Source: Escherichia coli
GTDB lineage: Bacteria; Pseudomonadota; Gammaproteobacteria; Enterobacterales; Enterobacteriaceae
Assembly (NCBI RefSeq): GCF_048403405.1
Contig: NZ_CP183129.1
Length of the DNA stretch: 64,000 nt
Reading direction: 5' to 3' (one strand)
The notes below the pieces were generated by a model. It was not told where the DNA came from. It worked only from the letters and a program-made list of their open reading frames with translations, and made no database searches. Shown piece by piece: positions 677 to 56,686 of this stretch. A program made the position numbers and the translations under genes. How positions within the stretch are numbered: position 1 is the first letter of the stretch; each line of letters begins with the position of its first letter.

Positions 677-1978
677 ATGGCGCAATTCTACTCTGCAAAA
701 CGACGCACGACGACGCGTCAGATCATAACTGTTTCAGTCAACGACCTCGACTCTTTTGGTCAGGGCGTGGCACGACATAACGGCAAAGCGTTATTTATTC
801 CTGGATTACTGCCACAGGAAAACGCGGAAGTTACTGTTACTGAAGATAAAAAACAGTACGCCCGCGCTAAAGTCGTGCGCCGGTTAAGCGATAGCCCGGA
901 ACGCGAAACGCCACGCTGCCCTCATTTTGGCGTATGCGGTGGCTGTCAGCAACAACACGCCAGCGTGGATTTACAGCAGCGAAGCAAAAGTGCGGCACTC
1001 GCCCGATTAATGAAACACGAAGTCTCTGAAGTGATCGCCGATGTTCCCTGGGGCTATCGCCGTCGCGCGCGTTTAAGTTTGAACTACTTACCGAAAACAC
1101 AGCAACTTCAGATGGGGTTTCGCAAAGCGGGCTCCAGTGACATTGTCGACGTTAAACAATGCCCCATTTTAGTGCCCCAACTTGAAGCATTGCTGCCCAA
1201 AGTCAGGGCATGCCTGGACAGCTTACAAGCTATGCGCCATCTTGGTCATGTTGAACTGGTACAGGCAACCAGCGGCACGCTGATGATTTTGCGCCATACC
1301 GCACCGCTAAGTTCGGCTGATCGCGAAAAACTGGAACGCTTTTCGCATTCTGAAGGCCTGGATCTGTATCTCGCCCCCGATAGTGAGATACTCGAAACCG
1401 TCGCTGGTGAGATGCCCTGGTATGACTCAAACAGGTTGCGCTTAACTTTTAGCCCGCGCGATTTTATTCAGGTCAATGCGGGTGTGAACCAAAAAATGGT
1501 AGCGCGTGCGTTGGAATGGCTGGATGTGCAACCTGAAGATCGCGTACTGGATTTGTTCTGCGGTATGGGCAACTTTACACTGCCATTAGCGACACAAGCT
1601 GCCAGTGTGGTGGGTGTAGAAGGTGTTCCGGCGCTGGTGGAAAAAGGCCAGCAGAATGCGCGTCTTAATGGCTTACACAATGTGACGTTTTATCACGAAA
1701 ATCTTGAAGAAGATGTCACAAAGCAGCCGTGGGCGAAAAACGGCTTCGATAAAGTGTTGCTGGACCCGGCGCGAGCAGGTGCCGCAGGTGTTATGCAGCA
1801 AATTATAAAACTGGAACCTATTCGTATAGTTTATGTATCCTGTAACCCTGCAACGCTGGCTCGGGATAGCGAAGCGTTATTAAAAGCAGGATATACCATT
1901 GCGCGACTGGCGATGCTGGATATGTTCCCACACACGGGACATCTGGAATCGATGGTACTTTTCTCGCGCGTTAAATAG
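677..1978 (+). CDS. rlmD: 23S rRNA m5U1939 methyltransferase RlmD (RumA)
   Basis: 433-aa ORF; Cys cluster [11 protein letters not shown] and SAM-methyltransferase core ([14 protein letters not shown]); divergent from barA. Confidence 0.93.
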
Positions 1979-2025
1979 TTGCGATTTGCCGATTTCGGCA
2001 GGTCTGGTCCCTAAAGGAGAGGACG

Positions 2026-4260
2026 ATGGTTGCGGTAAGAAGTGCACATATCAATAAGGCTGGTGAATTTGATCCGGAAAAATGGATCGCAAGTCTGGGT
2101 ATTACCAGCCAGAAGTCGTGTGAGTGCTTAGCCGAAACCTGGGCGTATTGTCTGCAACAGACGCAGGGGCATCCGGATGCCAGTCTGTTATTGTGGCGTG
2201 GTGTTGAGATGGTGGAGATCCTCTCGACATTAAGTATGGACATTGACACGCTGCGGGCGGCGCTGCTGTTCCCTCTGGCGGATGCCAACGTAGTCAGCGA
2301 AGATGTGCTGCGTGAGTGCGTCGGTAAGTCGGTCGTTAACCTTATTCACGGCGTGCGTGATATGGCGGCGATCCGCCAGCTGAAAGCGACGCATACCGAT
2401 TCTGTTTCCTCCGAACAGGTCGATAACGTTCGCCGGATGTTATTGGCGATGGTCGATGATTTTCGCTGCGTGGTCATCAAACTGGCAGAGCGTATTGCTC
2501 ATCTGCGCGAAGTAAAAGACGCGCCGGAAGATGAACGCGTACTGGCGGCAAAAGAGTGCACCAATATCTACGCGCCGTTGGCGAACCGTCTTGGGATTGG
2601 ACAACTGAAATGGGAGCTGGAAGATTACTGCTTCCGTTATCTCCACCCGACCGAATACAAACGCATCGCAAAACTGCTGCATGAACGCCGTCTCGACCGC
2701 GAACACTATATCGAAGAGTTTGTCGGCCATCTGCGCGCTGAGATGAAAGCTGAAGGCGTTAAAGCTGAAGTGTATGGTCGACCGAAACACATCTACAGCA
2801 TCTGGCGCAAAATGCAGAAAAAGAACCTCGCCTTCGATGAGCTGTTTGATGTGCGTGCGGTACGTATTGTCGCCGAGCGTTTACAGGATTGCTATGCCGC
2901 ACTGGGGATAGTGCACACTCACTATCGCCACCTGCCGGATGAGTTTGACGATTACGTCGCTAACCCGAAACCAAACGGTTATCAGTCTATTCATACCGTG
3001 GTTCTGGGGCCGGGTGGCAAAACCGTTGAGATCCAAATCCGCACTAAACAGATGCATGAAGATGCAGAGTTGGGTGTTGCTGCGCACTGGAAATATAAAG
3101 AGGGCGCGGCAGCTGGCGGCGCACGTTCGGGACATGAAGACCGGATTGCCTGGCTGCGTAAACTGATTGCGTGGCAGGAAGAGATGGCTGATTCCGGCGA
3201 AATGCTCGACGAAGTACGTAGCCAGGTCTTTGACGACCGGGTGTACGTCTTTACGCCGAAAGGTGATGTCGTTGATTTGCCTGCGGGATCAACACCGCTG
3301 GACTTCGCTTACCACATCCACAGTGATGTCGGACACCGCTGCATCGGGGCAAAAATTGGCGGGCGCATTGTGCCGTTCACCTACCAGCTGCAGATGGGCG
3401 ACCAGATTGAAATTATCACCCAGAAACAGCCGAACCCCAGCCGTGACTGGTTAAACCCAAACCTCGGTTACGTCACAACCAGCCGTGGGCGTTCGAAAAT
3501 TCACGCCTGGTTCCGTAAACAGGACCGTGACAAAAACATTCTGGCTGGGCGGCAAATCCTTGACGACGAGCTGGAACATCTGGGGATCAGCCTGAAAGAA
3601 GCAGAAAAACATCTGCTGCCGCGTTACAACTTCAATGATGTCGACGAGTTGCTGGCGGCAATTGGTGGCGGGGATATCCGTCTCAATCAGATGGTGAACT
3701 TCCTGCAATCGCAATTTAATAAGCCGAGTGCCGAAGAGCAGGATGCCGCCGCGCTGAAGCAACTTCAGCAAAAAAGCTATACGCCGCAAAACCGCAGTAA
3801 AGATAACGGTCGTGTGGTGGTAGAAGGTGTCGGTAACCTGATGCACCACATCGCGCGCTGCTGCCAGCCGATTCCTGGAGATGAGATTGTCGGCTTCATT
3901 ACCCAGGGGCGCGGTATTTCAGTGCATCGTGCAGACTGTGAGCAACTGGCGGAACTGCGCTCCCATGCGCCAGAACGCATTGTTGACGCGGTATGGGGCG
4001 AGAGCTACTCCGCCGGATATTCGCTGGTGGTCCGGGTGATGGCCAATGATCGCAGTGGATTATTGCGTGATATCACGACCATTCTTGCCAACGAGAAGGT
4101 GAACGTGCTTGGCGTTGCCAGCCGTAGCGACACTAAACAGCAACTGGCGACTATCGACATGACCATTGAGATTTACAATCTGCAAGTGCTGGGCCGCGTG
4201 CTGGGTAAACTCAATCAGGTGCCGGATGTTATCGACGCGCGTCGGTTGCACGGGAGTTAG
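2026..4260 (+). CDS. relA: GTP pyrophosphokinase / (p)ppGpp synthetase I RelA
   Basis: 744-aa ORF with RelA/SpoT-type synthetase region and C-terminal regulatory domains; sits between rlmD and mazE. Confidence 0.96.
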   Translation: MVAVRSAHINKAGEFDPEKWIASLGITSQKSCECLAETWAYCLQQTQGHPDASLLLWRGVEMVEILSTLSMDIDTLRAALLFPLADANVVSEDVLRECVGKSVVNLIHGVRDMAAIRQLKATHTDSVSSEQVDNVRRMLLAMVDDFRCVVIKLAERIAHLREVKDAPEDERVLAAKECTNIYAPLANRLGIGQLKWELEDYCFRYLHPTEYKRIAKLLHERRLDREHYIEEFVGHLRAEMKAEGVKAEVYGRPKHIYSIWRKMQKKNLAFDELFDVRAVRIVAERLQDCYAALGIVHTHYRHLPDEFDDYVANPKPNGYQSIHTVVLGPGGKTVEIQIRTKQMHEDAELGVAAHWKYKEGAAAGGARSGHEDRIAWLRKLIAWQEEMADSGEMLDEVRSQVFDDRVYVFTPKGDVVDLPAGSTPLDFAYHIHSDVGHRCIGAKIGGRIVPFTYQLQMGDQIEIITQKQPNPSRDWLNPNLGYVTTSRGRSKIHAWFRKQDRDKNILAGRQILDDELEHLGISLKEAEKHLLPRYNFNDVDELLAAIGGGDIRLNQMVNFLQSQFNKPSAEEQDAAALKQLQQKSYTPQNRSKDNGRVVVEGVGNLMHHIARCCQPIPGDEIVGFITQGRGISVHRADCEQLAELRSHAPERIVDAVWGESYSAGYSLVVRVMANDRSGLLRDITTILANEKVNVLGVASRSDTKQQLATIDMTIEIYNLQVLGRVLGKLNQVPDVIDARRLHGS

Positions 4261-11270: not shown

Positions 11271-12031
11271 GTGTTCCCCGCGCCAGCGGGGATAAACCGC
11301 GTTCAGCGTTGCTGGGCTGCGCAATGGACTGGTGTTCCCCGCGCCAGCGGGGATAAACCGCGGAGTTTTCACGGAACGCACAGCGAATTATGGTGTTCCC
11401 CGCGCCAGCGGGGATAAACCGCCGATAAATTTTCGCCCCGTTTCCAGCGCCGCGTGTTCCCCGCGCCAGCGGGGATAAACCGTTCAAACTGTAGGGATCG
11501 GCAATGGTGCCGAAGTGTTCCCCGCGCCAGCGGGGATAAACCGGGGCATTAGAATAACTTAAATGGAAAAAGAAAGTGTTCCCCGCGCCAGCGGGGATAA
11601 ACCGTCAGCCAGCACATAATTTTTATAGTCAGTATTGTGTTCCCCGCGCCAGCGGGGATAAACCGAAAGAGGTTATCGAGCGATATAACGCGTCCATGTG
11701 TTCCCCGCGCCAGCGGGGATAAACCGGTGCCTGGCGTCCATCTATTCACATGCCGCGCGTGTTCCCCGCGCCAGCGGGGATAAACCGTATTGGCGACGAT
11801 GGCATACCAGGACTACTCCGTGTTCCCCGCGCCAGCGGGGATAAACCGGCTCAGCGTCTGCTCTGGTGCCTCGCCCGTGAGTGTTCCCCGCGCCAGCGGG
11901 GATAAACCGGACCGTTACGGGCGCGTTCTTGGACTTGTTGAGTGTTCCCCACATCAGCGGGGATAAACCGGACACAGAGCGCCGCTATAGCGCCTATGCC
12001 AAGAGTTTCCCGCACCAGCGGGAATAAACCA
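11271..12031 (+). CRISPR. CRISPR array (CRISPR2.1-like): 13 repeats, 12 spacers of 32 nt
   Basis: 29-nt repeat GTGTTCCCCGCGCCAGCGGGGATAAACCG at 61-nt period starting 11271, 11332, 11393 ... 12003; repeat 12 degenerate (CCCCACATCAGCGGGG), terminal repeat 13 degenerate (GAGTTTCCCGCACCAGCGGGAATAAACCA). Frame anchored on ORF-track entries that translate repeats as RFIPAGAGNT/GLSPLARGT. Confidence 0.97.
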
Positions 12032-28725: not shown

Positions 28726-28878
28726 ATGCTGACAAAATATGCCCTTGTGGCAATCATCGTACTGTGTTGTACAGTACTGGGATTCACGCTGATGGTAGGC
28801 GACTCGTTGTGTGAGTTGAGTATCAGAGAACGTGGTATGGAGTTTAAGGCAGTTCTCGCTTACGAATCGAAGAAGTAG
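28726..28878 (+). CDS. Hok/Gef-family type I toxin (50 aa), not in ORF track
   Basis: ATG at 28726 preceded by AGGGAGG RBS; translation [50 protein letters not shown] has the Hok-family TM helix and C-terminal ...AYES.K signature; frame anchored against the antisense ORF 28681..28935. Confidence 0.8.
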
Positions 28879-29115
28879 CCACCACGCGGGGGTAAAACCC
28901 CGCGTATTGGATTGTGATGGTTTGGTCTCCTGCACCCTTTTTTAATTTATATTGTTTATGTAAATATTATGCCTATGTTTATTATTCATATATATTACGG
29001 ATGAAAATTATTTGATTATTCATAATGTAAATATTTTATTGAACGATATATATCACAGATAATTTTTAATATATGCGTAAATATCCTTTAAGTTTTACTG
29101 AAGGATAAAAACATT

Positions 29116-31773
29116 GTGACTTTCTTTGATTTCTGGGGAAAAACCCGACGTGGCGAGAAAGAGGGTGGTGACGACTATCACCTTCTTTGCTGGCATTCGC
29201 TGGATGTAGCCGCGATGGGCTATTTAATGGTTAAAAGCAATTGCTTCGGGCTGGCTGACTATTTTCGTCAACTAGGTTTCGCTGATACGGAGCAGGCAGC
29301 ACAATTTTTCGCCTGGTTGCTGTGCTGGCACGATACTGGAAAATTTGCCCGCTCTTTTCAGCAACTTTACCTGCACCCGCAACTCAAGGTTCCGGAAAGC
29401 TCTAGAAAAAATTACGAAAAAATCTCTCATTCAACGCTGGGTTACTGGTTGTGGCACCATTATTTAAGTGAATGCGAAGAATTGCTTCCTTCATCTTCAC
29501 TCTCTCCGCGCAAACTTAAACGGGTGATAGAGATGTGGATGCCCATGACTACCGGGCATCATGGTCGCCCGCCTGACCGTATGGATGAACTGGATAATTT
29601 TCTGCCTGAAGACAAAGCCGCCGCGCGAGATTTTCTCCTTGTAATCAAGGCACTGTTTCCTCTCATCGAGATCCCCGCATTCTGGGATGATGACGATGGC
29701 GTTGAACTTTTAAAACAACTTTCCTGGTATATCTCTGCAACTGTCGTACTTGCAGACTGGACGGGATCGTCAACGCGATTTTTTCCACGCGTCGCGCAGG
29801 CAATGGATATTGAAGATTACTGGCAGAAGGCTTTAGTTCAGGCTCAAAACGCATTAACCGTCTTTCCTCCAAAAGCACAAACCGCGCCTTTCACCGGAAT
29901 TAATACGCTGTTTCCTTTTATTGAGCACCCGACACCGTTACAGCAAAAGGTGCTGGATCTGGATATCAGCCAGCCTGGGCCACAGTTATTTATTCTGGAG
30001 GATGTGACTGGCGCAGGTAAAACAGAAGCGGCGCTTATCCTGGCCCACAGGTTGATGGCTGCGGGGAAAGCACAGGGTTTGTTTTTTGGCCTGCCAACAA
30101 TGGCAACGGCCAATGCCATGTACGATCGGCTGGTAAAAACCTGGCTTGCTTTCTATTCGCCAGAATCCCGCCCCAGCCTGGTGCTGGCACACAGTGCCCG
30201 CACATTAATGGACCGCTTTAATGAATCACTCTGGTCCGGTGATTTAGTCGGGTCAGAAGAACCGGATGAACAAGCGTTCAGTCAGGGATGTGCGGCCTGG
30301 TTTGCCGACAGTAACAAGAAGGCGTTGCTGGCTGAAATTGGCGTCGGCACGCTGGATCAGGCGATGATGGCGGTGATGCCGTTTAAACATAATAATCTGC
30401 GGCTTCTGGGACTGAGTAACAAAATCCTGCTGGCTGATGAGATCCATGCCTGTGACGCTTACATGTCGTGCATTCTTGAAGGATTGATTGAGCGGCAGGC
30501 GCGTGGCGGAAACAGCGTTATTTTGCTTTCTGCCACGTTATCTCAACAGCAGCGCGACAAACTCGTTGCTGCCTTTGCGCGTGGTGCAGAGGGTCAGCAA
30601 GAAGCTCCGTTCCTGGAAAAGGATGATTACCCCTGGCTGACGCACGTTACGAAATCGGATGTGCATTCACACCGGGTAGCAACGCGCAAAGACGTTGAGC
30701 GTAGCGTGAGCGTGGGTTGGCTTCATAGCGAACAAGAGTGTATTGCGCGTATCGAATCGGCGGTAAGTCAGGGGAAATGCATCGCCTGGATCCGGAATTC
30801 TGTCGATGATGCTATTAAAGTTCATCGTCAGTTGCTTGCCCGCGGCGTCATTCCTGCTTCCAGCCTTTCTCTGTTTCATAGCCGCTTTGCTTTTAGCGAT
30901 CGCCAGCGAATTGAAACGGAAACGCTGGCACGCTTCGGTAAAGAAGATAGCTCACAGCGTGCCGGAAAAGTCCTCATTTGTACTCAGGTCTTAGAGTCGA
31001 GCGTTGATTGCGATATGGACGAAATGATTTCCGACCTGGCCCCTGTTGATTTGCTGATCCAGCGAGCGGGGCGATTACAGCGGCATATCCGCGATATTAA
31101 TGGTCAGTTAAAGCGTGACGGAAAAGACGAGCGTTCTCCTCCTGAATTGCTGATTCTGGCCCCCGTCTGGGACGACGCTCCAGGTGACGAATGGTTCGGC
31201 AGTGCCATGCGTAACAGTGCATATGTCTATCCCGATCATGGACGAATCTGGCTGACGCAGCGTGTACTGCGTGAGCAAGGCGCGATTCAAATGCCACACG
31301 CAGCCCGCCTTCTTATTGAATCAGTCTACGGTGAGGACGTGGTAATGCCGGAAGGATTTGCCCGCAGCGAGCAGGAACAAGTGGGCAAATATTACTGCGA
31401 TCGCGCAATGGCTAAAAAGTTTGTGCTGAACTTCAGGCCCGGCTATGCCGCCAATATCAACGATTACCTCCCGGAAAAGCTGTCGACACGTCTGGCTGAG
31501 GAGTCTGTTTCCCTGTGGCTGGCTACCTGTATTGACGGTGTGGTGAAGCCTTATGCCACCGGTGCTCACGCATGGGAAATGAGCGTTGTCAGAGTGCGTC
31601 GAAGCTGGTGGAAAAAACATTGCGATGAGTTTTCTTTACTGGAAGGGGAAGCGTTCAGGCAGTGGTGCGTTGAACAGCGGCAAGATCCGGAGATGGCAAA
31701 TGTGATTTTAGTTACCGATGACGAAAGTTGCGGGTATTCGGCTAGGGAGGGATTGATTGGTAAGGTTGATTGA
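29116..31773 (+). CDS. cas3: Cas3 HD nuclease/helicase (type I-E)
   Basis: 885-aa ORF, GTG start; HD motif (WHDTGK), Walker A (GAGKTEAA) and DEIHA helicase motif. Confidence 0.93.
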   Translation: MTFFDFWGKTRRGEKEGGDDYHLLCWHSLDVAAMGYLMVKSNCFGLADYFRQLGFADTEQAAQFFAWLLCWHDTGKFARSFQQLYLHPQLKVPESSRKNYEKISHSTLGYWLWHHYLSECEELLPSSSLSPRKLKRVIEMWMPMTTGHHGRPPDRMDELDNFLPEDKAAARDFLLVIKALFPLIEIPAFWDDDDGVELLKQLSWYISATVVLADWTGSSTRFFPRVAQAMDIEDYWQKALVQAQNALTVFPPKAQTAPFTGINTLFPFIEHPTPLQQKVLDLDISQPGPQLFILEDVTGAGKTEAALILAHRLMAAGKAQGLFFGLPTMATANAMYDRLVKTWLAFYSPESRPSLVLAHSARTLMDRFNESLWSGDLVGSEEPDEQAFSQGCAAWFADSNKKALLAEIGVGTLDQAMMAVMPFKHNNLRLLGLSNKILLADEIHACDAYMSCILEGLIERQARGGNSVILLSATLSQQQRDKLVAAFARGAEGQQEAPFLEKDDYPWLTHVTKSDVHSHRVATRKDVERSVSVGWLHSEQECIARIESAVSQGKCIAWIRNSVDDAIKVHRQLLARGVIPASSLSLFHSRFAFSDRQRIETETLARFGKEDSSQRAGKVLICTQVLESSVDCDMDEMISDLAPVDLLIQRAGRLQRHIRDINGQLKRDGKDERSPPELLILAPVWDDAPGDEWFGSAMRNSAYVYPDHGRIWLTQRVLREQGAIQMPHAARLLIESVYGEDVVMPEGFARSEQEQVGKYYCDRAMAKKFVLNFRPGYAANINDYLPEKLSTRLAEESVSLWLATCIDGVVKPYATGAHAWEMSVVRVRRSWWKKHCDEFSLLEGEAFRQWCVEQRQDPEMANVILVTDDESCGYSAREGLIGKVD

Positions 31774-31798
31774 GATGCCCTGGAGTCGGAGGACTCCA

Positions 31799-31889
31799 GG
31801 GCCTATCCCCGCTGACGCGGGGAACGGAATAACAGAGTAACAGGAGCTACCTCTTACTGCTGGTTTATCCCTACGTTAATAGGGAAGAA
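31799..31889 (-). repeat. Two degenerate CRISPR-repeat-like units in inverted orientation in the cas3-cse1 intergenic region
   Basis: 31799-31827 GGGCCTATCCCCGCTGACGCGGGGAACGG matches the reverse complement of the repeat at 23/29 positions; 31861-31889 TGGTTTATCCCTACGTTAATAGGGAAGAA matches at 17/29 and keeps a CCCTA/TAGGG stem; start-to-start spacing 62 nt. Confidence 0.6.
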
Positions 31890-32238
31890 GGGAGTATAGC
31901 ATCTACTGAGATGAATTTGTTTTGATATTTAATGTGAACTTCCTCTTACTGCCTTTACATTTTTCTATGCGAGGAGTAATCTTTGCTCAGTTTGGGAGAG
32001 TTGAGTTTTTTTTACCCAAATATAGGCTCTGGATACAGGACTGATTGGTTATTCCAGAGTATGAGAATTATGTAAGAGGGTTGTACCATGGAAGAAAAGA
32101 CCTCCCGCTGTAAACGACTGTTTTGTCGACTAATGGTTCGTTTTGGTAAAAGGTTGTCAGTTAGTTTTCAGTTATCGGTTAACTAAAGGTTTAAGGGATG
32201 ACAAATGCCATGGAAGGTGATTTTAATAAGGAATAGTT

Positions 32239-33801
32239 ATGTACCCTACTAGTTTAATTACTTCCCCGTGGTTGCCTGTTCGTTTCAAAGACGGAACGAC
32301 AGGCAAGCTGGCGCCAGTCGATCTGGCTGATGAAAATGTTGTCGATATCGCTGCGCCTCGGGCAGATCTCCAGGGGGCGGCATGGCAGTTTTTGCTGGGA
32401 CTATTACAAACCAGCTTCGCGCCAAAAGATCAACGTCGTTGGGATGACATCTGGGAAGACGGACTGGAAGCTGAAAAGCTACGGGAAGCATTGCTGTCAT
32501 TAGACCATGCTTTCCAGTTCGGGCCAGATTCACCTTCATTTATGCAGGATTTTGAGGCGCTCACGGGAGATAAAGTTCCGGTCGCTTCGCTACTGCCTGA
32601 GATTCCCGGCGTTCAAACAACAAAGTTTAATAAAGACCACTTTATCAAGCGTGGTGTAACGGAACACCTGTGCCCACAGTGTTCTGCACTAGCCTTGTTC
32701 TCTCTACAGTTAAATGCACCGTCAGGCGGCAAAGGCTATCGCACCGGTTTACGCGGCGGTGGGCCGATGACGACTCTCATTGAATTACAGGAATATCAGG
32801 GCAATCAACAAACACCCTTGTGGCGCAAACTGTGGCTCAACGTGATGCCGCAGGATGAAGCCGACTTACCGCTACCCAAAAAATTTGACGATCTGATTTT
32901 CCCCTGGCTAGGCCCGACGCGTACCAGCGAACTGGCCGGTGCGGTGGTAACCCATGATCAGGTCAATAAACTCCAGGCGTACTGGGGAATGCCGCGGCGT
33001 ATACGTATTGATTTTAATACCACGACAGTCGGCAACTGCGATATTTGCGACGAGCAGAACGACGCGCTCCTGAGCCTGATGACGACCAAAAATTACGGTG
33101 CCAATTATGCCATGTGGCAGCATCCCTTAACGCCTTACCGTGTACCACTTAAAGAGGGTGGCGAGTTTTACTCCGTTAAACCACAACCGGGCGGTTTAAT
33201 CTGGCGCGACTGGTTAGGCCTTATCGAAACGGGTAAATCAGAAAACAATACGGAACTTCCCGCGCTGGTGGTGAAACTCTTTAATGCCAGCAGTCTGAAA
33301 CAGGCAAAAGTGGGCCTATGGGGATTTGGTTATGATTTTGACAACATGAAAGCGCGCTGTTGGTACGAACACCATTTCCCGCTACTGCTCAATAAAAAAG
33401 AAGGCCAGATACCGAAGCTGCGGCTGGCTGCGCAAACGGCTTCACGGATTCTGAGTCTGTTACGGAGTGCATTGAAAGAAGCATGGTTCTCCGATCCAAA
33501 AGGTGCAAGGGGTGATTTCAGTTTTGTGGATATCGACTTCTGGAACAAAACTCAGCATCGCTTCCTGAGGTTAGTGCGCCAAATTGAAGAAGGTCAGGAT
33601 GCGGATGAATTACTCGGCAAATGGCAAAAGGAAATTTGGTTATTCGCGCGTCAGGATTTTGACGAGCGTGTATTCACTAATCCTTATGAGCCCGTTGATT
33701 TGAAACGCGTCATGACCGCGCGCAAGAAATATTTTACAACATCGGCGGAGAAGCAAAGTGCTAAAGCCGCCAGGGAGAAAAAGCAGGAGGCTGCTGAATG
33801 A
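32239..33801 (+). CDS. casA: Cse1 / CasA, large subunit of Cascade (type I-E)
   Basis: 520-aa ORF first in the Cascade operon; divergent from the K-12 CasA sequence as I recall it. Confidence 0.85.
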   Translation: MYPTSLITSPWLPVRFKDGTTGKLAPVDLADENVVDIAAPRADLQGAAWQFLLGLLQTSFAPKDQRRWDDIWEDGLEAEKLREALLSLDHAFQFGPDSPSFMQDFEALTGDKVPVASLLPEIPGVQTTKFNKDHFIKRGVTEHLCPQCSALALFSLQLNAPSGGKGYRTGLRGGGPMTTLIELQEYQGNQQTPLWRKLWLNVMPQDEADLPLPKKFDDLIFPWLGPTRTSELAGAVVTHDQVNKLQAYWGMPRRIRIDFNTTTVGNCDICDEQNDALLSLMTTKNYGANYAMWQHPLTPYRVPLKEGGEFYSVKPQPGGLIWRDWLGLIETGKSENNTELPALVVKLFNASSLKQAKVGLWGFGYDFDNMKARCWYEHHFPLLLNKKEGQIPKLRLAAQTASRILSLLRSALKEAWFSDPKGARGDFSFVDIDFWNKTQHRFLRLVRQIEEGQDADELLGKWQKEIWLFARQDFDERVFTNPYEPVDLKRVMTARKKYFTTSAEKQSAKAAREKKQEAAE

Positions 33802-34334
33802 GTATTGTAAAAGAGGAGCACAAAGCCACGCTGCGTAAATGGCACGAAGAGTTGCAGGAAAAACGCGGCAATCGTGCCAGTCTGCGGCGTAGCACAACGG
33901 TTAATGATGTTTGTCTGTCAGAAGGGTTTCGTTCTCTGCTGATGCAGACCCACACGTTGTGGAAAATTGAATCACAGGAGTGGCGTTTTACCGCACTGGC
34001 ACTGGTTGCCGCCGTTGCCGCCAATGTAAAAGCCATTGATGAACGGCAGCCTTTTGCCGCGCAGTTGGCGGCGGTAATGTCTGAGGGGCGTTTTACTCGC
34101 CTGTCGGCAGTCAAAACGCCGGATGAATTACTGCGCCAGTTACGTCGCGCGGTCAAATTATTAAATGGTTCCGTCAATCTTATCTCTTTGGCAGACGATA
34201 TTTTCCGCTGGTGCCAGGAGAGCGACGATCTGCTCAATCATCACCGCCGCCAGCAGCGGCCAACAGAATTTATCCGTATCCGCTGGGCGCTGGAATATTA
34301 CCAGGCTGGCGACGCCGATAACGAACAAAATTAA
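33798..34334 (+). CDS. casB: Cse2 / CasB, small subunit of Cascade
   Basis: 178-aa ORF overlapping the casA stop by 4 nt. Confidence 0.85.
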   Translation: MSIVKEEHKATLRKWHEELQEKRGNRASLRRSTTVNDVCLSEGFRSLLMQTHTLWKIESQEWRFTALALVAAVAANVKAIDERQPFAAQLAAVMSEGRFTRLSAVKTPDELLRQLRRAVKLLNGSVNLISLADDIFRWCQESDDLLNHHRRQQRPTEFIRIRWALEYYQAGDADNEQN

Positions 34335-34348
34335 TAAAGGACTATCTC

Positions 34349-35404
34349 ATGACGACATTTATTCAGCTTCATTTGTTAACCGCTTACCCTGCTGCCAACC
34401 TTAACCGTGATGACACCGGTGCGCCAAAAACTGTGGTACTGGGTGGAGCAACGCGTCTGCGCGTTTCCTCACAAAGTCTGAAACGTGCGTGGCGCACTTC
34501 TGCACTTTTTGAACAGGCACTGGCGGGCCATATTGGTATTCGCAGTGGGCGTATTGCGCGTGAGGCGGCAACTATCCTGATTGAGAAAGGCATCGAAGAG
34601 AAAAAAGCCATCGAATGGGCGGCAAAAATTGCGGATTATCTTGGGAAAGCTAAAAACGACAAAAAACCAAAAGATCCGCTCACTAACGCCGAAACTGAAC
34701 AGCTAGTCCATATCAGCCCGGCAGAATTTGACGCCGTAAAAGCGCTGGCCCATCAACTGGCCGAAGAAAAGCGCGCGCCAAAAGAGGAAGATCTCGCTTT
34801 GTTACGTAAAGATCGCATGGCGGTAGATATCGCTATGTTTGGTCGTATGCTGGCGAATAAACCCGAATTTAATGTTGAAGCCGCCTGCCAGGTCGCGCAT
34901 GCATTTGGTGTCAGTGAAACGATTGTCGAAGATGATTTTTTCACCGCCGTTGATGATTTGCGCCAGGCTTCTGAAGATGCCGGTGCCGGGCATCTCGGAG
35001 AAACCGGATTCGGTTCAGCACTTTTCTACACCTATATCTGCATTGATAAAGATCTGCTGGTCGAAAACCTCGGCGGTGACGAAGCGTTAGCTAATCAGAC
35101 CATACGCGCCTTTACGGAAGCTGCGCTTAAAGTCTCCCCCACCGGTAAACAAAACAGTTTTGCCAGCCGTGCCTACGCCTCCTGGGCGCTGGCAGAAAAA
35201 GGCACCGAACAACCGCGTTCTCTGGCGGCGGCTTTCTATGAACCCATTAATGGCACCCGTCAGTTAGATGTGGCGGTGCAGCGTATTACAACGCTTCGCG
35301 AAAATATGAATACGGTCTACGAACAGAAGACCGAATGCACAAGTTTTGACGTGATGAACAAACAGGGAAGCATGAAGGACGTGCTGGACTTTATCTGCGC
35401 GTAA
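34349..35404 (+). CDS. casC: Cas7e / CasC, Cascade backbone subunit
   Basis: 351-aa ORF MTTFIQLHLLTAYPAANLNRDDTGAPKTVVLGGATRLRVSSQSLKRAWR, same N-terminal pattern as E. coli CasC. Confidence 0.92.
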   Translation: MTTFIQLHLLTAYPAANLNRDDTGAPKTVVLGGATRLRVSSQSLKRAWRTSALFEQALAGHIGIRSGRIAREAATILIEKGIEEKKAIEWAAKIADYLGKAKNDKKPKDPLTNAETEQLVHISPAEFDAVKALAHQLAEEKRAPKEEDLALLRKDRMAVDIAMFGRMLANKPEFNVEAACQVAHAFGVSETIVEDDFFTAVDDLRQASEDAGAGHLGETGFGSALFYTYICIDKDLLVENLGGDEALANQTIRAFTEAALKVSPTGKQNSFASRAYASWALAEKGTEQPRSLAAAFYEPINGTRQLDVAVQRITTLRENMNTVYEQKTECTSFDVMNKQGSMKDVLDFICA

Positions 35405-35414
35405 GGGGCGGCTT

Positions 35415-36161
35415 ATGAGCCAATATCTGATTTTTCAGCTTCATGGGCCGATGGCATCCTGGGGCGTCGATGCCCCCGGTGAAGTGCGTCATACCCATGA
35501 ACTGCCTTCGCGCTCAGCATTGCTGGGGCTGCTGGCTGCCGGGGTAGGGATTCGGCGTGATGATACCGAACGCTTAAACGCGTTTAATCGCCACTATTCA
35601 CTGGTGGTTTGCGCCAGCCGTAACCCGCGCTGGGCACGGGATTATCACACGGTCCAGATGCCAAAAGAGGTGCGTAAAGCGCGTTATTTCAGCCGTCGCG
35701 AAGAGTTGAGCGACCCTGATCTTCTGAGCGCGATTATCTCCCGGCGCGACTACTACACCGATGCCTGGTGGATGGTGGCGGTGGCAACAACAGCCGATGC
35801 GCCTTACAGCCTCGAACAGTTGCAGGAAGGTTTACGCCATCCGGTTTTTCCGCTTTATCTGGGGAGAAAAAGTCATCCGCTGGCGTTACCACTTGCGCCG
35901 TTACTGCTCGAAGGCAACGCGTCTGATGTCTTACGTAACGCATACCAACAGTATCAGGATCGTTTCCACGAACTGAAAGTCTCACTCCCGAAACTTCAGG
36001 ATGAATGCTGGTGGGAAGGGGAGCACGATGGCCTGGTCGCGAGCAAAATATTACGCCGCCGGGATGTTCCTTTAAATCGTCAGCAGTGGCTGTTTGGGGA
36101 ACGCACCGTCAATCAGGGGCCGTGGCTCAGCAAGGAGAAACCATGTACCTCTCAAGAATAA
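35415..36161 (+). CDS. casD: Cas5e / CasD
   Basis: 248-aa ORF MSQYLIFQLHGPMASWG..., Cas5 N-terminal signature. Confidence 0.9.
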   Translation: MSQYLIFQLHGPMASWGVDAPGEVRHTHELPSRSALLGLLAAGVGIRRDDTERLNAFNRHYSLVVCASRNPRWARDYHTVQMPKEVRKARYFSRREELSDPDLLSAIISRRDYYTDAWWMVAVATTADAPYSLEQLQEGLRHPVFPLYLGRKSHPLALPLAPLLLEGNASDVLRNAYQQYQDRFHELKVSLPKLQDECWWEGEHDGLVASKILRRRDVPLNRQQWLFGERTVNQGPWLSKEKPCTSQE

Positions 36162-36789
36162 CCTTACATACCGGCCAGCTTTCGCCTGCGCAGTTGCTGC
36201 ATCTGGTGGATCGCGGTGAATATGTGATGCATCAGTGGCTGTGGGATCTTTTCCCCGGCGGCAAAGAAAGGCAATTTCTTTATCGTCGGGAAGAACTCCA
36301 GGGGGCGTTTCGCTTTTTTGTCCTGTCGCAGGAACGCCCGGCGGAAAGTGATATTTTCACCATCGAATGCCGACCATTTGCGCCAGAGTTGCGTACCGGA
36401 CAATCCCTTTGTTTCAACCTGCAGGCGAATCCAACAATTTGTAAAGCGGGCAAACGCCACGACTTGCTGATGGAGGCGAAACGGCAGGTGAGGGGGCAGG
36501 TGGAAGGAAGTGATGTCTGGTTGCATCAACAACAGGCTGCGCTGGACTGGCTGGCAGCGCAGGGGGAGAGAAGCGGTTTTACACTGCTGGATACTTCGGT
36601 TGATGCCTACCGACAACAGCAACTGCGGCGGGAAAACTCCCGGCAACTGATCCAGTTCAGTAGCGTGGATTATACGGGGATGCTTACGGTCACCGATCCT
36701 AGGTTATTTCTGCAACGTCTCAGTCAGGGGTATGGCAAAAGCCGGGCGTTCGGTTGTGGTCTGATGCTGATCAAACCCGGAGCAGAGGC

Positions 36790-36793
<4 letters not shown>
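36143..36793 (+). CDS. casE: Cas6e / CasE, crRNA-processing endoribonuclease
   Basis: Internal ATG at 36143 with AAGGAG RBS gives MYLSRITLHTG...; C-terminal G-rich loop GCGLMLIKP; overlaps casD end. Confidence 0.9.
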
Positions 36794-38003
<1,210 letters not shown>

Positions 38004-38099: not shown

Positions 38100-38496
38100 G
38101 TGTTCCCCGCGCCAGCGGGGATAAACCGAATACGCAACAGTGTTTTTATTGACAACACCGGTGTTCCCCGCGCCAGCGGGGATAAACCGGCAACGCCAGT
38201 AAATCAGACCAACGGCGCTGGGTGTTCCCCGCGCCAGCGGGGATAAACCGCGTTGTTTTGCCGGGTCGGGTGAATATATCGTAGTGTTCCCCGCGCCAGC
38301 GGGGATAAACCGGCCAGATTTCCAGTTCACTGGTCTTCGCGGCAAGTGTTCCCCGCGCCAGCGGGGATAAACCGAATGAGAGCTGACAGGTGTATGTCAT
38401 CAGTACGTGTTCCCCGCACCAGCGGGGATAAACCGTAATATTAGACTAATGTTTTTTTGTTGAGTTCGTGTTCCCCGCGCCAGCGGGGAACTCCCA
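38100..38496 (+). CRISPR. CRISPR array (CRISPR I, cas-adjacent): 7 repeats, 6 spacers (32-33 nt)
   Basis: Repeat GTGTTCCCCGCGCCAGCGGGGATAAACCG at 38100, 38161, 38222, 38284, 38346, 38407 (one G-to-A change) and a truncated terminal repeat at 38468 (GTGTTCCCCGCGCCAGCGGGGAACTCCCA). Confidence 0.97.
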
Positions 38497-47380: not shown

Positions 47381-48520
47381 ATGAGCGCGGGAAGCCCAAA
47401 ATTCACCGTTCGCCGCATTGCGGCTTTGTCACTGGTTTCGCTATGGCTGGCAGGCTGTTCTGACACTTCAAATCCACCGGCACCGGTCAGCTCCGTTAAT
47501 GGCAATGCGCCTGCAAATACCAATTCTGGTATGTTGATTACGCCGCCGCCGAAAATGGGAACGACGTCTACAGCGCAGCAACCGCAAATTCAGCCGGTAC
47601 AGCAGCCACAAATTCAGGCTACTCAACAACCGCAAATCCAGCCAGTACAGCCAGTAGCTCAGCAGCCGGTACAGATGGAAAACGGACGCATCGTCTACAA
47701 CCGTCAGTATGGGAACATTCCGAAAGGCAGTTATAGCGGCAGTACCTATACCGTGAAAAAAGGCGACACACTTTTCTATATCGCCTGGATTACTGGCAAC
47801 GATTTCCGTGACCTTGCTCAGCGCAACAATATTCAGGCACCATACGCGCTGAACGTCGGTCAGACCTTACAGGTGGGTAATGCTTCCGGTACGCCAATCA
47901 CTGGCGGAAATGCCATTACCCAGGCCGACGCAGCAGAGCAAGGAGTTGTGATCAAGCCTGCACAAAATTCCACCGTTGCTGTTGCGTCGCAACCGACAAT
48001 TACGTATTCTGAGTCTTCGGGTGAACAGAGTGCTAACAAAATGTTGCCGAACAACAAGCCAACTGCGACCACGGTCACAGCGCCTGTAACGGTACCAACA
48101 GCAAGCACAACCGAGCCGACTGTCAGCAGTACATCAACCAGTACGCCTATCTCCACCTGGCGCTGGCCGACTGAGGGCAAAGTGATCGAAACCTTTGGCG
48201 CTTCTGAGGGGGGCAACAAGGGGATTGATATCGCAGGCAGCAAAGGACAGGCAATTATCGCGACCGCAGATGGCCGCGTTGTTTATGCCGGTAACGCGCT
48301 GCGCGGCTACGGTAATCTGATTATCATCAAACATAATGATGATTACCTGAGTGCCTACGCCCATAACGACACAATGCTGGTCCGGGAACAACAAGAAGTG
48401 AAGGCGGGGCAAAAAATAGCAACCATGGGTAGCACCGGAACCAGTTCAACACGCTTGCATTTTGAAATTCGTTACAAGGGGAAATCCGTAAACCCGCTGC
48501 GTTATTTGCCGCAGCGATAA
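47381..48520 (+). CDS. nlpD: Murein hydrolase activator lipoprotein NlpD (LysM + M23-like)
   Basis: 379-aa ORF with lipobox LAGC, Q/P-rich repeats, LysM and C-terminal M23-like domain. Confidence 0.94.
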
Positions 48521-55427: not shown

Positions 55428-56686
55428 GATAAAAACTCTCTTTGGGCTCGTGAAAAAAAGGCTTCATCACCGAAGTTGCCAGATTTAAGGGCGAGTGAGA
55501 CAGGTTTATCCAGTGCGTTTACCCACGGCACGCCGGGAGAAATGGTTGGGCCAATATGAAACCCTTTTATTCCCAGGCTCTGTGTGACTACGCCGGAGGT
55601 CTCACCGCCTGCGACAATAAAGCGTGTCACGCCTTCCGCTGCTAACCGCGCCGCTAGTTGAGAAAACAGTGTTTCTACTGCCTGACTGGCTTTATGTGCA
55701 CCGTATTGCTGTTGAATTGCTGCCAATGCGTCAGTGCTGGCAGTGGCAAAAACCAGTGGAGCAAGTACACTTTCCTGGCCCAGAACCCACTCTGCCAGTT
55801 CGTGTGCATAAGCGGCCAGAGTTTCAATTGAGAGGCAGCGTGCCACATCAACTTCACGGGCTGGTGCAATTTGACGGTAATGTGCTACCTGGCAGTTGGT
55901 CATTTGAGAGCATGAACCGGAGAGCACTACGCCGCGCCCAGCGAGCGGATGCCCTGCTTTGCGAGCCTGGTTACCGTTTTCTTGCGCCCACTGCCGGGCA
56001 AGGCCAATCGCCAGACCAGAACCGCCCGTTACCAGTGGGGTATCGCGCAAGGCTTCTCCCTGAATTTCCAGATGGTGTTCGGTCAGCGCATCAAGCACCG
56101 CGTAGCGGTAGCCCTCTTGCTGTAAGCGAGCCAGCTCTTGACGAACGGCATCCACACCTTGTTCGAAAACATGTGCCGAAACGACGCCGCAGCGCCCTGT
56201 GGATTGCGCTTCAACCAGACGGGGAAGATAGCTGTCGGTCATGGGATTTACCGGGTGATGGCGCATCCCGGATTCGGCCAGCAGTTGATTCATTACGAAC
56301 AAATACCCCTGATAAACCGTACGTCCGTTGACCGGCAGGGCCGGAGAGAAGACCGTAAACGGCGTGTCGAGAGCATCCATTAATGCATCGGTAACCGGGC
56401 CGATATTACCTTTCGCCGAACTGTCGAAAGTAGAGCAGTATTTGAAATAGATCTGTTTGCAACCTTGCTGTTGCAACCAGCTCAGTGCCGCCAGCGATTG
56501 CTGTGTGGCTTCAACCACCGGACAGGAACGCGTTTTCAGGCTGATCACCAGTGCGTCGATTGCTTCCGGCATTTTACCTGTTGGAACACCGTTAATTTGT
56601 ACCGTTGGTAGACCGTTTTCCACCAGAAAACTGGCGATATCCGTCGCGCCGGTAAAATCATCGGCGATAACGCCAATCTTGATCAT
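55424..56686 (-). CDS. ygbK: Four-carbon acid-sugar kinase YgbK (OtnK, DUF1537 family)
   Basis: 420-aa ORF MIKIGVIADDFTGATDIASFL... Confidence 0.85.
   Translation of the reverse strand: MIKIGVIADDFTGATDIASFLVENGLPTVQINGVPTGKMPEAIDALVISLKTRSCPVVEATQQSLAALSWLQQQGCKQIYFKYCSTFDSSAKGNIGPVTDALMDALDTPFTVFSPALPVNGRTVYQGYLFVMNQLLAESGMRHHPVNPMTDSYLPRLVEAQSTGRCGVVSAHVFEQGVDAVRQELARLQQEGYRYAVLDALTEHHLEIQGEALRDTPLVTGGSGLAIGLARQWAQENGNQARKAGHPLAGRGVVLSGSCSQMTNCQVAHYRQIAPAREVDVARCLSIETLAAYAHELAEWVLGQESVLAPLVFATASTDALAAIQQQYGAHKASQAVETLFSQLAARLAAEGVTRFIVAGGETSGVVTQSLGIKGFHIGPTISPGVPWVNALDKPVSLALKSGNFGDEAFFSRAQREFLS

What the first reader, a model, noticed from the sequence alone, without database searches (positions are those of the whole stretch)
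31777..31952. Inverted, degenerate CRISPR-repeat pair between cas3 and cse1
The cas3-cse1 intergenic region carries two repeat-like units on the opposite strand to both arrays. Unit 1 (31799-31827) matches the reverse-complemented repeat at 23/29 positions with the CCCCGC/GCGGGG stem intact. Unit 2 (31861-31889) matches at 17/29 but keeps a hairpin through apparently compensatory changes (CCCTA/TAGGG). Their 62-nt start-to-start spacing equals repeat plus spacer, so this looks like a decayed two-repeat mini-array. It sits next to a perfect 11-bp palindrome just after the cas3 stop (31777-31802) and an 11-nt direct repeat CCTCTTACTGC (31850-31860 and 31942-31952). It could be an array relic, or a Cas6e-recognisable hairpin on an antisense transcript.
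Basis: seen in the sequence. Interest (0 to 1): 0.65.

Follow-up and report, generated by a model that had tools for sequence, protein, structure and literature searches.

The report
Regulatory mini-CRISPR between cas3 and cse1
The two degenerate repeats are not array debris but a small guide-RNA gene of an already described kind (CreR / regulatory mini-array) that most likely steers the cell's own Cascade complex onto the promoter of the Cascade genes to hold them down; this is a new allele of a known mechanism.

Summary
Read on the minus strand, the pieces form one unit: an extended -10 promoter (TGcTATACT), a degenerate repeat that keeps a hairpin and the 8-nt crRNA 5' handle, a 33-nt spacer, a second repeat that keeps the Cas6e hairpin, and a terminal stem-loop. 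The "11-nt direct repeat" is the spacer's seed and its target. The second copy carries the canonical type I-E PAM (AAG) and abuts a predicted promoter facing cse1. I found the same design, with unrelated spacer sequences, in 13 other type I-E loci, including E. coli K-12 and one Salmonella. Guides and targets change in step. Mismatches pile up at spacer positions 6 and 12, which Cascade does not pair. The PAM-to-cse1 distance is held at 283-308 nt. This is the CreR / regulatory mini-array class (Liu et al. 2023; Shmakov et al. 2023), validated for a Salmonella I-E locus. The window's allele is rare: 6 of 2458 E. coli genomes with this cse1 type. Transcription, processing and repression are inferred, not shown. 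In passing: a conserved, unannotated 32-codon gene lies in the regulated leader.

The parts
31777..31802 (-). Terminal stem-loop (11 bp, 4-nt loop) directly 3' of the mini-array. It overlaps the last 4 nt of psiR2 and lies 4 nt after the cas3 stop.
   Evidence: fold; in 6 loci, 4 of its 11 pairs change on both sides and stay paired; 93% of cells are paired against 28-54% when the partner is slid; 0/500 shuffles reach the covariation score. It is absent from short-gap relatives. No U-tract follows it, and the terminator scan found nothing.
31799..31827 (-). psiR2, the downstream degenerate repeat CCGTTCCCCGCGTCAGCGGGGATAGGCCC. It would supply the Cas6e hairpin / 3' handle of the mature RNA.
   Evidence: 23/29 to the repeat: 18/21 in the hairpin part and 5/8 in the tail. 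It is the most conserved block of the gap, 0.80-0.93 identity.
31828..31860 (-). psiS, the 33-nt spacer-like guide GCAGTAAGAGGTAGCTCCTGTTACTCTGTTATT.
   Evidence: Its first 11 nt are identical to the target at 31952..31942, and 19/33 match overall.
31861..31889 (-). psiR1, the upstream degenerate repeat TTCTTCCCTATTAACGTAGGGATAAACCA. It has a hairpin in repeat register plus the 5' handle AUAAACCA.
   Evidence: 17/29 overall, handle 7/8, remainder 10/21. ViennaRNA gives a 7-bp stem with a 4-nt loop and a 7-nt 3' tail, the same as in other loci.
31893..31901 (-). Predicted promoter of the mini-array: extended -10 TGcTATACT. The predicted start is about 31886, at the foot of the psiR1 stem.
   Evidence: TGnTAnnnT lies 8-14 nt upstream of psiR1 in 8 of 11 loci; chance expectation is 0.0066 per locus, P about 6e-16. 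Transcription itself is not shown.
31920..31955 (-). Target site: PAM AAG (31955..31953) followed by the protospacer (31952..31920). The seed match is GCAGTAAGAGG at 31952..31942.
   Evidence: 10/10 paired seed positions with an AAG PAM; 0/300 shuffles reach this; it is the only full-seed, PAM-flanked site in the 64-kb window.
31954..31982 (+). Predicted sigma-70 promoter facing cse1: TTTACA (31954-31959), 17 nt, TAATCT (31977-31982). Predicted start about 31989, leader about 250 nt.
   Evidence: my own position-weight scan, score 10.1, best in the region. The same geometry recurs in 6 other loci (-35 starts -1 to +11 from the PAM; in L012 and L014 it is only the second-best promoter hit). The stricter consensus scan did not list it. 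No TSS data.
32088..32186 (+). Conserved 32-codon small ORF (MEEKTSRCKRLFCRLMVRFGKRLSVSFQLSVN) in the leader, with GAGGG 7 nt upstream. It would be the first gene of the regulated transcript.
   Evidence: homologues occur only between cas3 and cse1. W against relatives gives pS 0.84-0.92, pN 0.12-0.18, ratio 0.14-0.21. The leader RNA is not unusually structured (z = +0.6). No family in NCBIfam or PADLOC.
32239..36793 (+). cse1-cse2-cas7-cas5-cas6e. These are the presumed regulated operon, and they also supply the proteins that process the guide (Cas6e) and use it (Cascade).
   Evidence: every product matches its type I-E NCBIfam equivalog above cut-off.

Best explanation
This is a CreR-type regulatory mini-CRISPR (a 'crRNA-like RNA' gene).

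Proposed mechanism:
1. It is transcribed from its own extended -10 promoter on the strand opposite to cas3 and cse1.
2. Cas6e cuts after the psiR1 and psiR2 hairpins. This gives an RNA of about 70 nt with the 5' handle AUAAACCA, a 33-nt guide and a 3' hairpin, which is loaded into Cascade like a normal crRNA.
3. The guide pairs only through its PAM-proximal end (positions 1-11, then 13, 14, 16, 17) with a site carrying an AAG PAM at 31955..31920. That site lies against the -35 of the promoter that drives the small ORF and cse1-cas6e.
4. Partial pairing lets Cascade bind but not complete the R-loop that licenses Cas3, so the site is occluded, not cut. Cascade therefore represses its own synthesis.
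5. When Cascade is titrated by abundant crRNAs or blocked by anti-CRISPR proteins, repression is relieved.

Shown here: the anatomy, its statistical significance, guide-target co-evolution, the position-6/12 signature, the conserved promoter motif and the conserved spacing.

Inferred from the validated Salmonella example and from established Cascade biochemistry: transcription, Cas6e processing, Cascade loading, binding without cleavage, and repression.
For: (1) The pair of repeat-like units and the three-hairpin fold are far beyond chance.

(2) The spacer seed matches a PAM-flanked site at 10/10 paired positions, 0/300 shuffles, and it is the only such site in 64 kb.

(3) The same design occurs with unrelated guide sequences in L012, L014, L019, L026, L052, L057, L001, L002, L072 (S. 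enterica), K-12 and L074-L077. Each scripted case has an AAG or ATG PAM and a 9-10/10 seed (L074-L077 read). Ordinary-looking neighbouring spacers (L019b, L033b) have no such site.

(4) Within two orthologous families, 23 guide substitutions at paired positions are mirrored in the target and 1 is not. L074 against L077 adds 4 more in step.

(5) Positions 6 and 12 mismatch in 16/22 cells, against 6/22 at the equally unselected positions 13/14 (p = 0.006). Established structures of E. coli Cascade show that every sixth spacer base is flipped out and unpaired.

(6) psiR1 keeps the handle and psiR2 keeps the hairpin in all loci.

(7) TGnTAnnnT lies upstream of psiR1 in 8/11 loci.

(8) PAM to cse1 ATG is 283-308 nt in seven loci, with a promoter-like -35 at -1 to +11 from the PAM (second-best promoter hit in L012 and L014).

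(9) Cas6e and all Cascade genes are intact.

(10) Precedent: S. enterica I-E CreR repressed PcasA-gfp 8.6-fold in E. coli in a seed-dependent way and was relieved by crRNA excess and by AcrIE8. Mini-arrays lie between cas3 and cas8e in about 19% of bacterial I-E loci, with an E. coli example. A 150-200 nt antisense 'anti-Pcas' RNA has been detected in K-12.
Against: - There are no expression, processing or binding data for this allele.
- The cse1-facing promoter is only predicted: a strict consensus scan listed no promoter in 31700-32300, and TAATCT is a weak -10.
- The contiguous match (11 nt) is shorter than the 15 nt of the validated Salmonella CreR.
- The handle ends in A where the repeat has G.
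- The cassette is rare: 6 + 8 of 2458 E. coli genomes with this cse1 type, and the majority have a 97-nt gap without it. It is therefore dispensable.
- cas3 is annotated as frameshifted in two of the six carriers, so the locus may be decaying in this lineage.
- The 11 loci in the statistics are not all phylogenetically independent.
Confidence: 0.85

Rival explanations
1. CreTA-like safeguard instead of a plain autoregulator: the promoter that the guide targets mainly controls the conserved 32-aa cationic peptide. The peptide would act as a toxin or abortive-infection effector released when Cascade is lost or inhibited. The mini-array would then be the antitoxin (CreA), not a stand-alone CreR.
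For: A protein-coding small ORF under purifying selection lies between the target and cse1. It was found only in this position, and every intact copy sits next to a family-A mini-array. It is predicted to form a single helix, and by my reading of the sequence that helix would be basic and amphipathic. [quoted passage not shown] Another I-E gap (L033) carries a mazEF-like pair next to a mini-array.
Against: No toxicity data and no similarity to any toxin family. There is no hydrophobic transmembrane stretch as in type I toxins. No terminator separates it from cse1, so it would be co-induced with Cascade whenever cas is switched on. Mini-arrays of the other families (L001, L002, L019 and others) lack this ORF. 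K. indica keeps only a truncated remnant.
Confidence: 0.1
2. Antisense or terminator element for cas3: the convergent minus-strand transcript and the hairpins mainly act on the 3' end of cas3 mRNA (termination, stability or translation). This was originally suggested for the K-12 anti-Pcas RNA. The resemblance to a crRNA would be incidental.
For: The palindrome and psiR2 lie 4-55 nt after the cas3 stop and fold on either strand. The palindrome co-varies. Reviews cite this idea for anti-Pcas.
Against: It does not explain the PAM-flanked seed match, guide-target co-variation, the position 6/12 pattern or the retained 5' handle. No U-tract follows the hairpins on either strand and no terminator-like site was found. 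It could be a secondary role of the terminal hairpin.
Confidence: 0.04
3. Non-functional relic of a former inverted array, or of an ectopic repeat insertion, decaying neutrally.
For: Both units are degenerate. The cassette is absent from most E. coli with this cas type.
Against: Decay is partitioned by function. A promoter motif is conserved. The guide and a nearby PAM-flanked target co-evolve across genera. Neutral decay predicts none of these.
Confidence: 0.01

Closest known systems
CreR of the Salmonella enterica type I-E locus (Liu et al. 2023, bioRxiv 10.1101/2023.03.10.532045; later in Cell Host & Microbe, from my own knowledge)
   Same: psiR1-psiS-psiR2 mini-CRISPR in the cas3-casA gap. 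psiR1 keeps the 5' handle and psiR2 keeps the 3' handle. There is partial, PAM-proximal complementarity to a site with an AAG PAM upstream of casA, and the CRISPR repeat is nearly identical.
   Different: Different guide sequence. 11 contiguous matching nt instead of 15. Target about 284 nt upstream of cse1 instead of about 140 bp. A conserved small ORF lies in the regulated leader. This allele is untested. The one Salmonella mini-array I could fetch (L072, psiS AGTTAGTAGC...) belongs to the family of E. coli L001/L002, has its target on the other strand, and is not the window's allele.
Regulatory mini-arrays / crRNA-like RNAs between cas3 and cas8e (Shmakov et al. 2023, 10.1101/2023.03.03.530964), including the E. 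coli I-E example of their Fig. 4B
   Same: Location, transcription opposite to cas3, a match of at least 10 bp to the cas8 promoter region, AAG PAM, tolerated mismatch at position 6, and the prediction of Cascade autorepression. I found the K-12 unit independently.
   Different: Unrelated gap sequence. In the window the downstream repeat is the better conserved one, whereas their text describes the upstream one as better conserved. K-12 has almost no recognisable psiR2 (3/21) and no TGnTAnnnT.
CreTA of Haloarcula hispanica type I-B (Li et al., Science 2021; named from my own knowledge and as cited)
   Same: A degenerate mini-CRISPR whose RNA guides Cascade by partial complementarity to repress a promoter without cleavage.
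   Different: CreA represses an adjacent RNA toxin (creT). Here the target is the promoter of the Cascade operon, and the only candidate for a partner gene is an uncharacterised 32-aa ORF.
Long-form tracrRNA (tracr-L) autorepression of Cas9 (Workman et al. 2021, as cited)
   Same: A natural non-canonical guide with short complementarity turns the effector into a repressor of its own promoter.
   Different: Class 2, single-protein effector, and the guide derives from tracrRNA instead of a mini-array.

Membership tests
CreR / regulatory mini-array (crRNA-like RNA) of type I CRISPR-Cas | Two repeat-like units flanking a spacer-like sequence, inside or next to the cas operon, separate from the CRISPR arrays | tested here: met
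   Units at 31861-31889 and 31799-31827, 62 nt apart, between cas3 and cse1. Pair score 40/58 against a maximum of 31 in 2000 shuffles. The real arrays are elsewhere and on the other strand.
CreR / regulatory mini-array (crRNA-like RNA) of type I CRISPR-Cas | Upstream unit conserves the 5'-handle nucleotides and a processable hairpin; downstream unit conserves the hairpin / 3' handle | tested here: met
   psiR1 handle 7/8 and remainder 10/21, with a stem in register. psiR2 18/21 and 5/8 (fold).
CreR / regulatory mini-array (crRNA-like RNA) of type I CRISPR-Cas | Spacer has only partial, seed-proximal complementarity to a chromosomal site flanked by the subtype's PAM | tested here: met
   AAG + 11/11, then 19/33 overall. 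0/300 shuffles; unique in 64 kb.
CreR / regulatory mini-array (crRNA-like RNA) of type I CRISPR-Cas | Target lies in or next to the promoter of the effector cas genes | tested here: inconclusive
   The best promoter-like site on the cas strand (TTTACA-17-TAATCT) overlaps the PAM, and the geometry recurs in 6 other loci (second-best hit in two of them). The promoter is predicted only, and the strict scan found none.
CreR / regulatory mini-array (crRNA-like RNA) of type I CRISPR-Cas | Guide and target are maintained together in evolution | tested here: met
   23 of 24 guide substitutions at paired positions are mirrored in the target within two families. Positions 6/12 are free to differ, 16/22.
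CreR / regulatory mini-array (crRNA-like RNA) of type I CRISPR-Cas | Transcribed and processed by the Cas6 enzyme into a crRNA-like RNA that loads into the effector | not testable with these tools
   Indirect only: conserved extended -10, intact cas6e, and the K-12 anti-Pcas RNA precedent.
CreR / regulatory mini-array (crRNA-like RNA) of type I CRISPR-Cas | Effector-dependent repression of the target promoter without cleavage | not testable with these tools
   Shown for a Salmonella allele in E. coli, not for this one.
CreTA (CRISPR-regulated toxin-antitoxin) | A toxin gene whose promoter is the target of the mini-array RNA | tested here: inconclusive
   A conserved 32-aa ORF lies downstream of the targeted promoter. 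It has no similarity to known toxins and there is no toxicity test.
Degenerate / relic CRISPR array | Decay without regard to function; no dedicated promoter; no conserved self-target | tested here: not met
   Function-partitioned conservation, a conserved -10 motif, and a co-evolving PAM-flanked target.
Intrinsic (Rho-independent) terminator, for the 31777-31802 palindrome | G+C-rich hairpin followed by a U-tract | tested here: not met
   The hairpin is present and co-varies, but there is no T-run on either strand and the scan found 0 terminator-like sites.

The most novel reading that the evidence does not exclude
The cassette is more than an autoregulator. The CreR-controlled promoter first drives a previously undescribed, conserved 32-aa cationic helical peptide, found only between cas3 and cse1 and only next to this family of mini-arrays. 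The peptide could be the missing partner gene of type I-E 'stand-alone' CreR elements. It would be either a CreT-like toxin released when Cascade is disabled by anti-CRISPRs, or a small accessory or regulatory subunit of the I-E system.
Probability: 0.15. Interest if true: 0.75.

Novelty: new member of a known kind. Interest (0 to 1): 0.35.

Why it matters
It shows that some natural E. coli lineages carry a self-regulating guide RNA for their type I-E system, distinct from the K-12 and Salmonella alleles described so far. Such circuits set the level of Cascade, respond to crRNA load and to anti-CRISPR proteins, and are themselves hijacked by phage mimics.

The comparative set assembled here adds sequence-level support for the mechanism: neutral drift at exactly the flipped-out positions 6 and 12, guide and target changing in step, a fixed PAM-to-cse1 distance of about 285 nt, and an extended -10 promoter.

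For annotation, degenerate repeats next to cas3 should be read as genes and not as debris. The conserved small ORF in the regulated leader is a concrete, testable lead on whether 'stand-alone' CreR elements really stand alone.

Tried and rejected
- ORF-based delimitation of the cas3-cse1 gap in 64 loci was unreliable, because chance open frames fooled it. I replaced it with direct scanning upstream of cse1. My regex for locus-specific repeats also failed there, so the generic repeat was used; Gilliamella-type loci with different repeats were therefore not really tested.
- Rfam: no family in 31600-32400, only a chance snoRNA hit at E = 0.3.
- The strict promoter/terminator scan found nothing in the gap.
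- Supplementary tables of the CreR, Cracr and Shmakov papers are not held, so I could not check whether this exact allele is already listed.
- Search for a phage-borne mimic of this guide in IMG/VR gave one hit inside a coding region with no hairpin, judged a chance match.
- The small peptide has no NCBIfam or PADLOC family, no plasmid copy and no mention in the literature held here. It was too short for the word-indexed protein search.
- The leader RNA 31989-32260 is not unusually structured (z = +0.6), so I dropped the idea of a riboswitch-like leader.
- L033 (Brenneria) has a mini-array-like unit but no PAM-flanked seed target.
- Most Salmonella, Citrobacter and Klebsiella loci have an 11-nt cas3-cse1 gap with no room for a mini-array.

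Full report
CONTEXT. The window is an E. coli chromosome segment: cysJIH, cas3 (29116-31773), a 465-nt gap, cse1-cse2-cas7-cas5-cas6e-cas1-cas2 (32239-38003), a six-repeat array (38100-38435), then iap and cysDNC. A second twelve-repeat array lies at 11271-11970. Both arrays and all cas genes are on the + strand. Every Cas product matches its type I-E NCBIfam model.

OBSERVATION. On the minus strand, 31827..31799 matches the 29-nt repeat at 23/29 and 31889..31861 at 17/29, and these are the two best matches in the gap. In 2000 dinucleotide shuffles of the gap no single unit exceeded 18/29. No pair at 58-65 nt spacing exceeded 31/58, against the observed 40/58. The minus-strand RNA 31900..31770 folds into three hairpins and nothing else, at -60.7 kcal/mol and z = -7.0. 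The 11-mer CCTCTTACTGC occurs only at 31850-31860 and 31942-31952 in 64 kb.

WHAT THE PIECES ARE. Read 5'->3' on the minus strand, the gap contains in order:
- AAG (31955..31953).
- GCAGTAAGAGG (31952..31942).
- 40 nt of spacer DNA.
- TGcTATACT (31901..31893).
- psiR1: a UCCCUAU/GUAGGGA hairpin followed by AUAAACCA.
- A 33-nt spacer that begins with the same GCAGTAAGAGG.
- psiR2, with the canonical CCCCGC/GCGGGG hairpin.
- An 11-bp terminal stem-loop.

In type I-E the 8 nt after the repeat hairpin become the crRNA 5' handle, and the first spacer bases next to it are the seed. The PAM (AAG, or ATG) lies 5' of the protospacer on the strand that reads like the spacer. This is established knowledge, and state it for these elements. 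A scripted search found this site as the only one in a 1.4-kb neighbourhood, and in the whole window, with 10/10 paired seed positions and a functional PAM. 0 of 300 shuffles reached that. Beyond position 11 the match is patchy (19/33), which is the partial complementarity that characterises regulatory rather than immune guides.

COMPARATIVE EVIDENCE. A Cas7-based scan of one genome per species returned 64 type I-E loci. Further loci came from E. coli genomes, from a Salmonella Cse1 cluster, and from homologues of a small ORF described below.

Minus-strand psiR1-spacer-psiR2 units upstream of cse1 occur in these loci:
- K. spallanzanii (L012)
- Atlantibacter (L014)
- Pluralibacter (L019)
- an Enterobacteriaceae MAG (L026)
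- Tenebrionibacter (L052)
- Mixta (L057)
- two other E. coli gap variants (L001, L002)
- one S. enterica (L072)
- K-12
- L074-L077

Their guides are unrelated in sequence. In each scripted case the guide finds a site in its own gap with an AAG or ATG PAM and 9-10/10 paired seed positions, 0/300 shuffles each. Ordinary second spacers in L019 and L033 find nothing.

Four further regularities point to selection for a working Cascade guide.
(i) Positions 6 and 12 mismatch in 16 of 22 cells, close to the 75% expected for free bases. Positions 13/14, equally unused in my target selection, mismatch in 6 of 22 (Fisher p = 0.006). Every sixth spacer base is flipped out in Cascade, and Shmakov et al. 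note the position-6 tolerance.
(ii) Within two orthologous families (W/L012/L014 and L001/L002/L072), 23 guide substitutions at paired positions are mirrored in the target and one is not. L074 against L077 adds four more.
(iii) psiR1 always keeps the handle and a hairpin in register, and psiR2 always keeps the hairpin.
(iv) TGnTAnnnT, an extended -10, lies 8-14 nt upstream of psiR1 in 8 of 11 loci, against 0.0066 expected per locus.

Caveat: the loci are not all phylogenetically independent.

GEOMETRY. In the seven loci whose target is on the minus strand, the PAM lies 283-308 nt upstream of the cse1 ATG, although the sequences do not align. A sigma-70-like promoter on the cas strand starts its -35 at -1 to +11 from the PAM, predicting a 242-274-nt leader; in L012 and L014 this is only the second-best hit. 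In the window this promoter is TTTACA (31954-31959), 17 nt, TAATCT (31977-31982). In L001, L002 and L072 the target is on the other strand, and the best -35 lies 5-19 nt beyond the PAM-distal end of the protospacer. Either way Cascade would sit on the upstream edge of the promoter. The promoter is a prediction: the stricter built-in scan reported none, and I have no TSS data.

THE PALINDROME. The 31777-31802 stem-loop accompanies the cassette in six loci. It shows compensatory changes at 4 of 11 pairs, with 93% of cells paired against 28-54% when the partner is slid, and 0/500 shuffles reaching the covariation score. It is missing in relatives that lack the mini-array. It has no U-tract. I read it as a 3'-end structure for the convergent mini-array and cas3 transcripts. 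Its exact role is open.

COMPARISON WITH WHAT IS KNOWN. This is the CreR class. Liu et al. describe a degenerate mini-CRISPR in a S. enterica I-E locus with 15 nt of match, an AAG PAM and a target about 140 bp upstream of casA. It repressed PcasA-gfp 8.6-fold in E. coli in a seed-dependent manner and was relieved by excess crRNA or by AcrIE8. Shmakov et al. found mini-arrays between cas3 and cas8e in about 19% of bacterial I-E loci. These are transcribed opposite to cas3 and target the cas8 promoter region with an AAG PAM, and the paper includes an E. coli example. A later preprint mentions several distinct Salmonella CreR alleles and phage mimics of them. In K-12 an antisense "anti-Pcas" RNA of 150-200 nt is documented, with a role that reviews still called unknown. 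I located the K-12 unit independently.

The window's allele differs in guide sequence, match length and distance from the described Salmonella allele. It also differs from the one Salmonella mini-array I could fetch (L072). I could not check the papers' supplementary lists.

DISTRIBUTION. The window's gap is identical in 6 of 5426 complete E. coli genomes. Eight more share only the palindrome and psiR2 and carry other guides. This cse1 type is present in 2458 genomes. The one majority-form genome I examined, O157:H7, has a 97-nt gap without the cassette, as do the nearest non-coli relatives. Most Salmonella and Citrobacter have an 11-nt gap. The cassette is thus an optional module that comes and goes.

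SIDE FINDING. The only blocks of the gap conserved with relatives are psiR2, the last about 35 nt before cse1, and 32085-32174. That last block is a 32-codon ORF (32088-32186) with GAGGG 7 nt upstream.
- Against L012, L074 and L077, synonymous sites are nearly saturated (pS 0.84-0.92) while pN is 0.12-0.18, and the differences fall 7-8/3-6/18 by codon position.
- An exhaustive profile search of 1.84 billion proteins found only four further members. All the intact ones are encoded between cas3 and cse1, next to a mini-array of the same family.
- It is unannotated in RefSeq E. coli and has no family.
- AlphaFold predicts a single helix at pLDDT 85, which is weak evidence for so short a peptide. 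From the residue pattern I read it as basic and amphipathic.
- The leader RNA is not unusually structured.

Whether it is a leader peptide, an accessory protein or a CreT-like toxin cannot be decided here.

VERDICT. The element is a CreR-type regulatory mini-CRISPR, a new allele of a known kind, with good comparative but no experimental support for function in this strain.

Noticed in passing
window 32088-32186 (+): Conserved, unannotated 32-aa ORF (MEEKTSRCKRLFCRLMVRFGKRLSVSFQLSVN) in the leader between the CreR target and cse1. pN/pS is 0.14-0.21 against relatives. Homologues were found only between cas3 and cse1, next to the same mini-array family. No known family.
   Followed up: partly
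L069 (E. coli K-12 MG1655, NC_000913.3 2884000-2884900), about 350-565: K-12 carries its own unit on the strand antisense to cas: CTTCCCTACTTAAGTAGGGATAAACCG, then TTATTGGTCTTATTAT..., with the target AAG-TTATTcGTtTTATTAT. psiR2 is almost unrecognisable and overlaps the cas3 stop. It probably corresponds to the 'anti-Pcas' RNA and to Shmakov et al. Fig. 4B.
   Followed up: partly
window 29073-29116 (cas3 5' end): cas3 is annotated 'frameshifted' (2701 nt) in two of the six genomes with the identical gap (MS 69-1, TUM14771). In the window the frame is open from GTG 29116 and still covers the HD and helicase domains, so only the first few codons are affected.
   Followed up: partly
window about 28726-28878 (+), between cysH and cas3: A Hok/Gef family toxin gene is annotated just upstream of cas3 in TUM14771. 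The window coordinates are inferred by offset from that annotation.
   Followed up: no
L033 (Brenneria roseae) 1701-2338 (-), inside a 1.2-kb cas3-cse1 gap: A mazE/mazF-like toxin-antitoxin pair sits next to a three-unit mini-array. No PAM-flanked seed target was found for its short first spacer.
   Followed up: partly
L001 1555-1580; L072; L014; L019: Guide lengths vary from 19 to 34 nt. L001 and L072 have 26 nt, exactly 6 nt shorter than the usual 32, which is one Cas7 step. L019 combines a short regulatory spacer with a perfect repeat and an ordinary 31-nt spacer in one three-repeat unit.
   Followed up: no
L019 2727, L052 2693, L057 2701, L072 1365 (+ strand leaders): Leaders of other mini-array families contain unrelated short hydrophobic ORFs (15-26 aa, some with SD-like motifs) about 95-135 nt upstream of cse1. 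Similarity among three of them is weak (E about 0.01). They may be chance.
   Followed up: no
L078 (GCA_018142025.1, CP073335.1): A decaying copy of the cassette: the small ORF reads through to 81 aa, the psiR1 hairpin is lost and no cse1 follows. The guide GTAATTAAGGCCGAT and its AAG-flanked target are still present.
   Followed up: no
L004 (MAG labelled Collinsella sp., 6981-nt contig): It encodes a Cas7 99% identical to the E. coli one, with cas3 and cse1 flanks 93-95% identical. It is probably a mis-binned Escherichia contig.
   Followed up: no
window 47579-47643 and 56571-56617: Two short 24-nt-period tandem repeats reported by TRF (2.7 and 2.0 copies). They are unrelated to the finding.
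   Followed up: no
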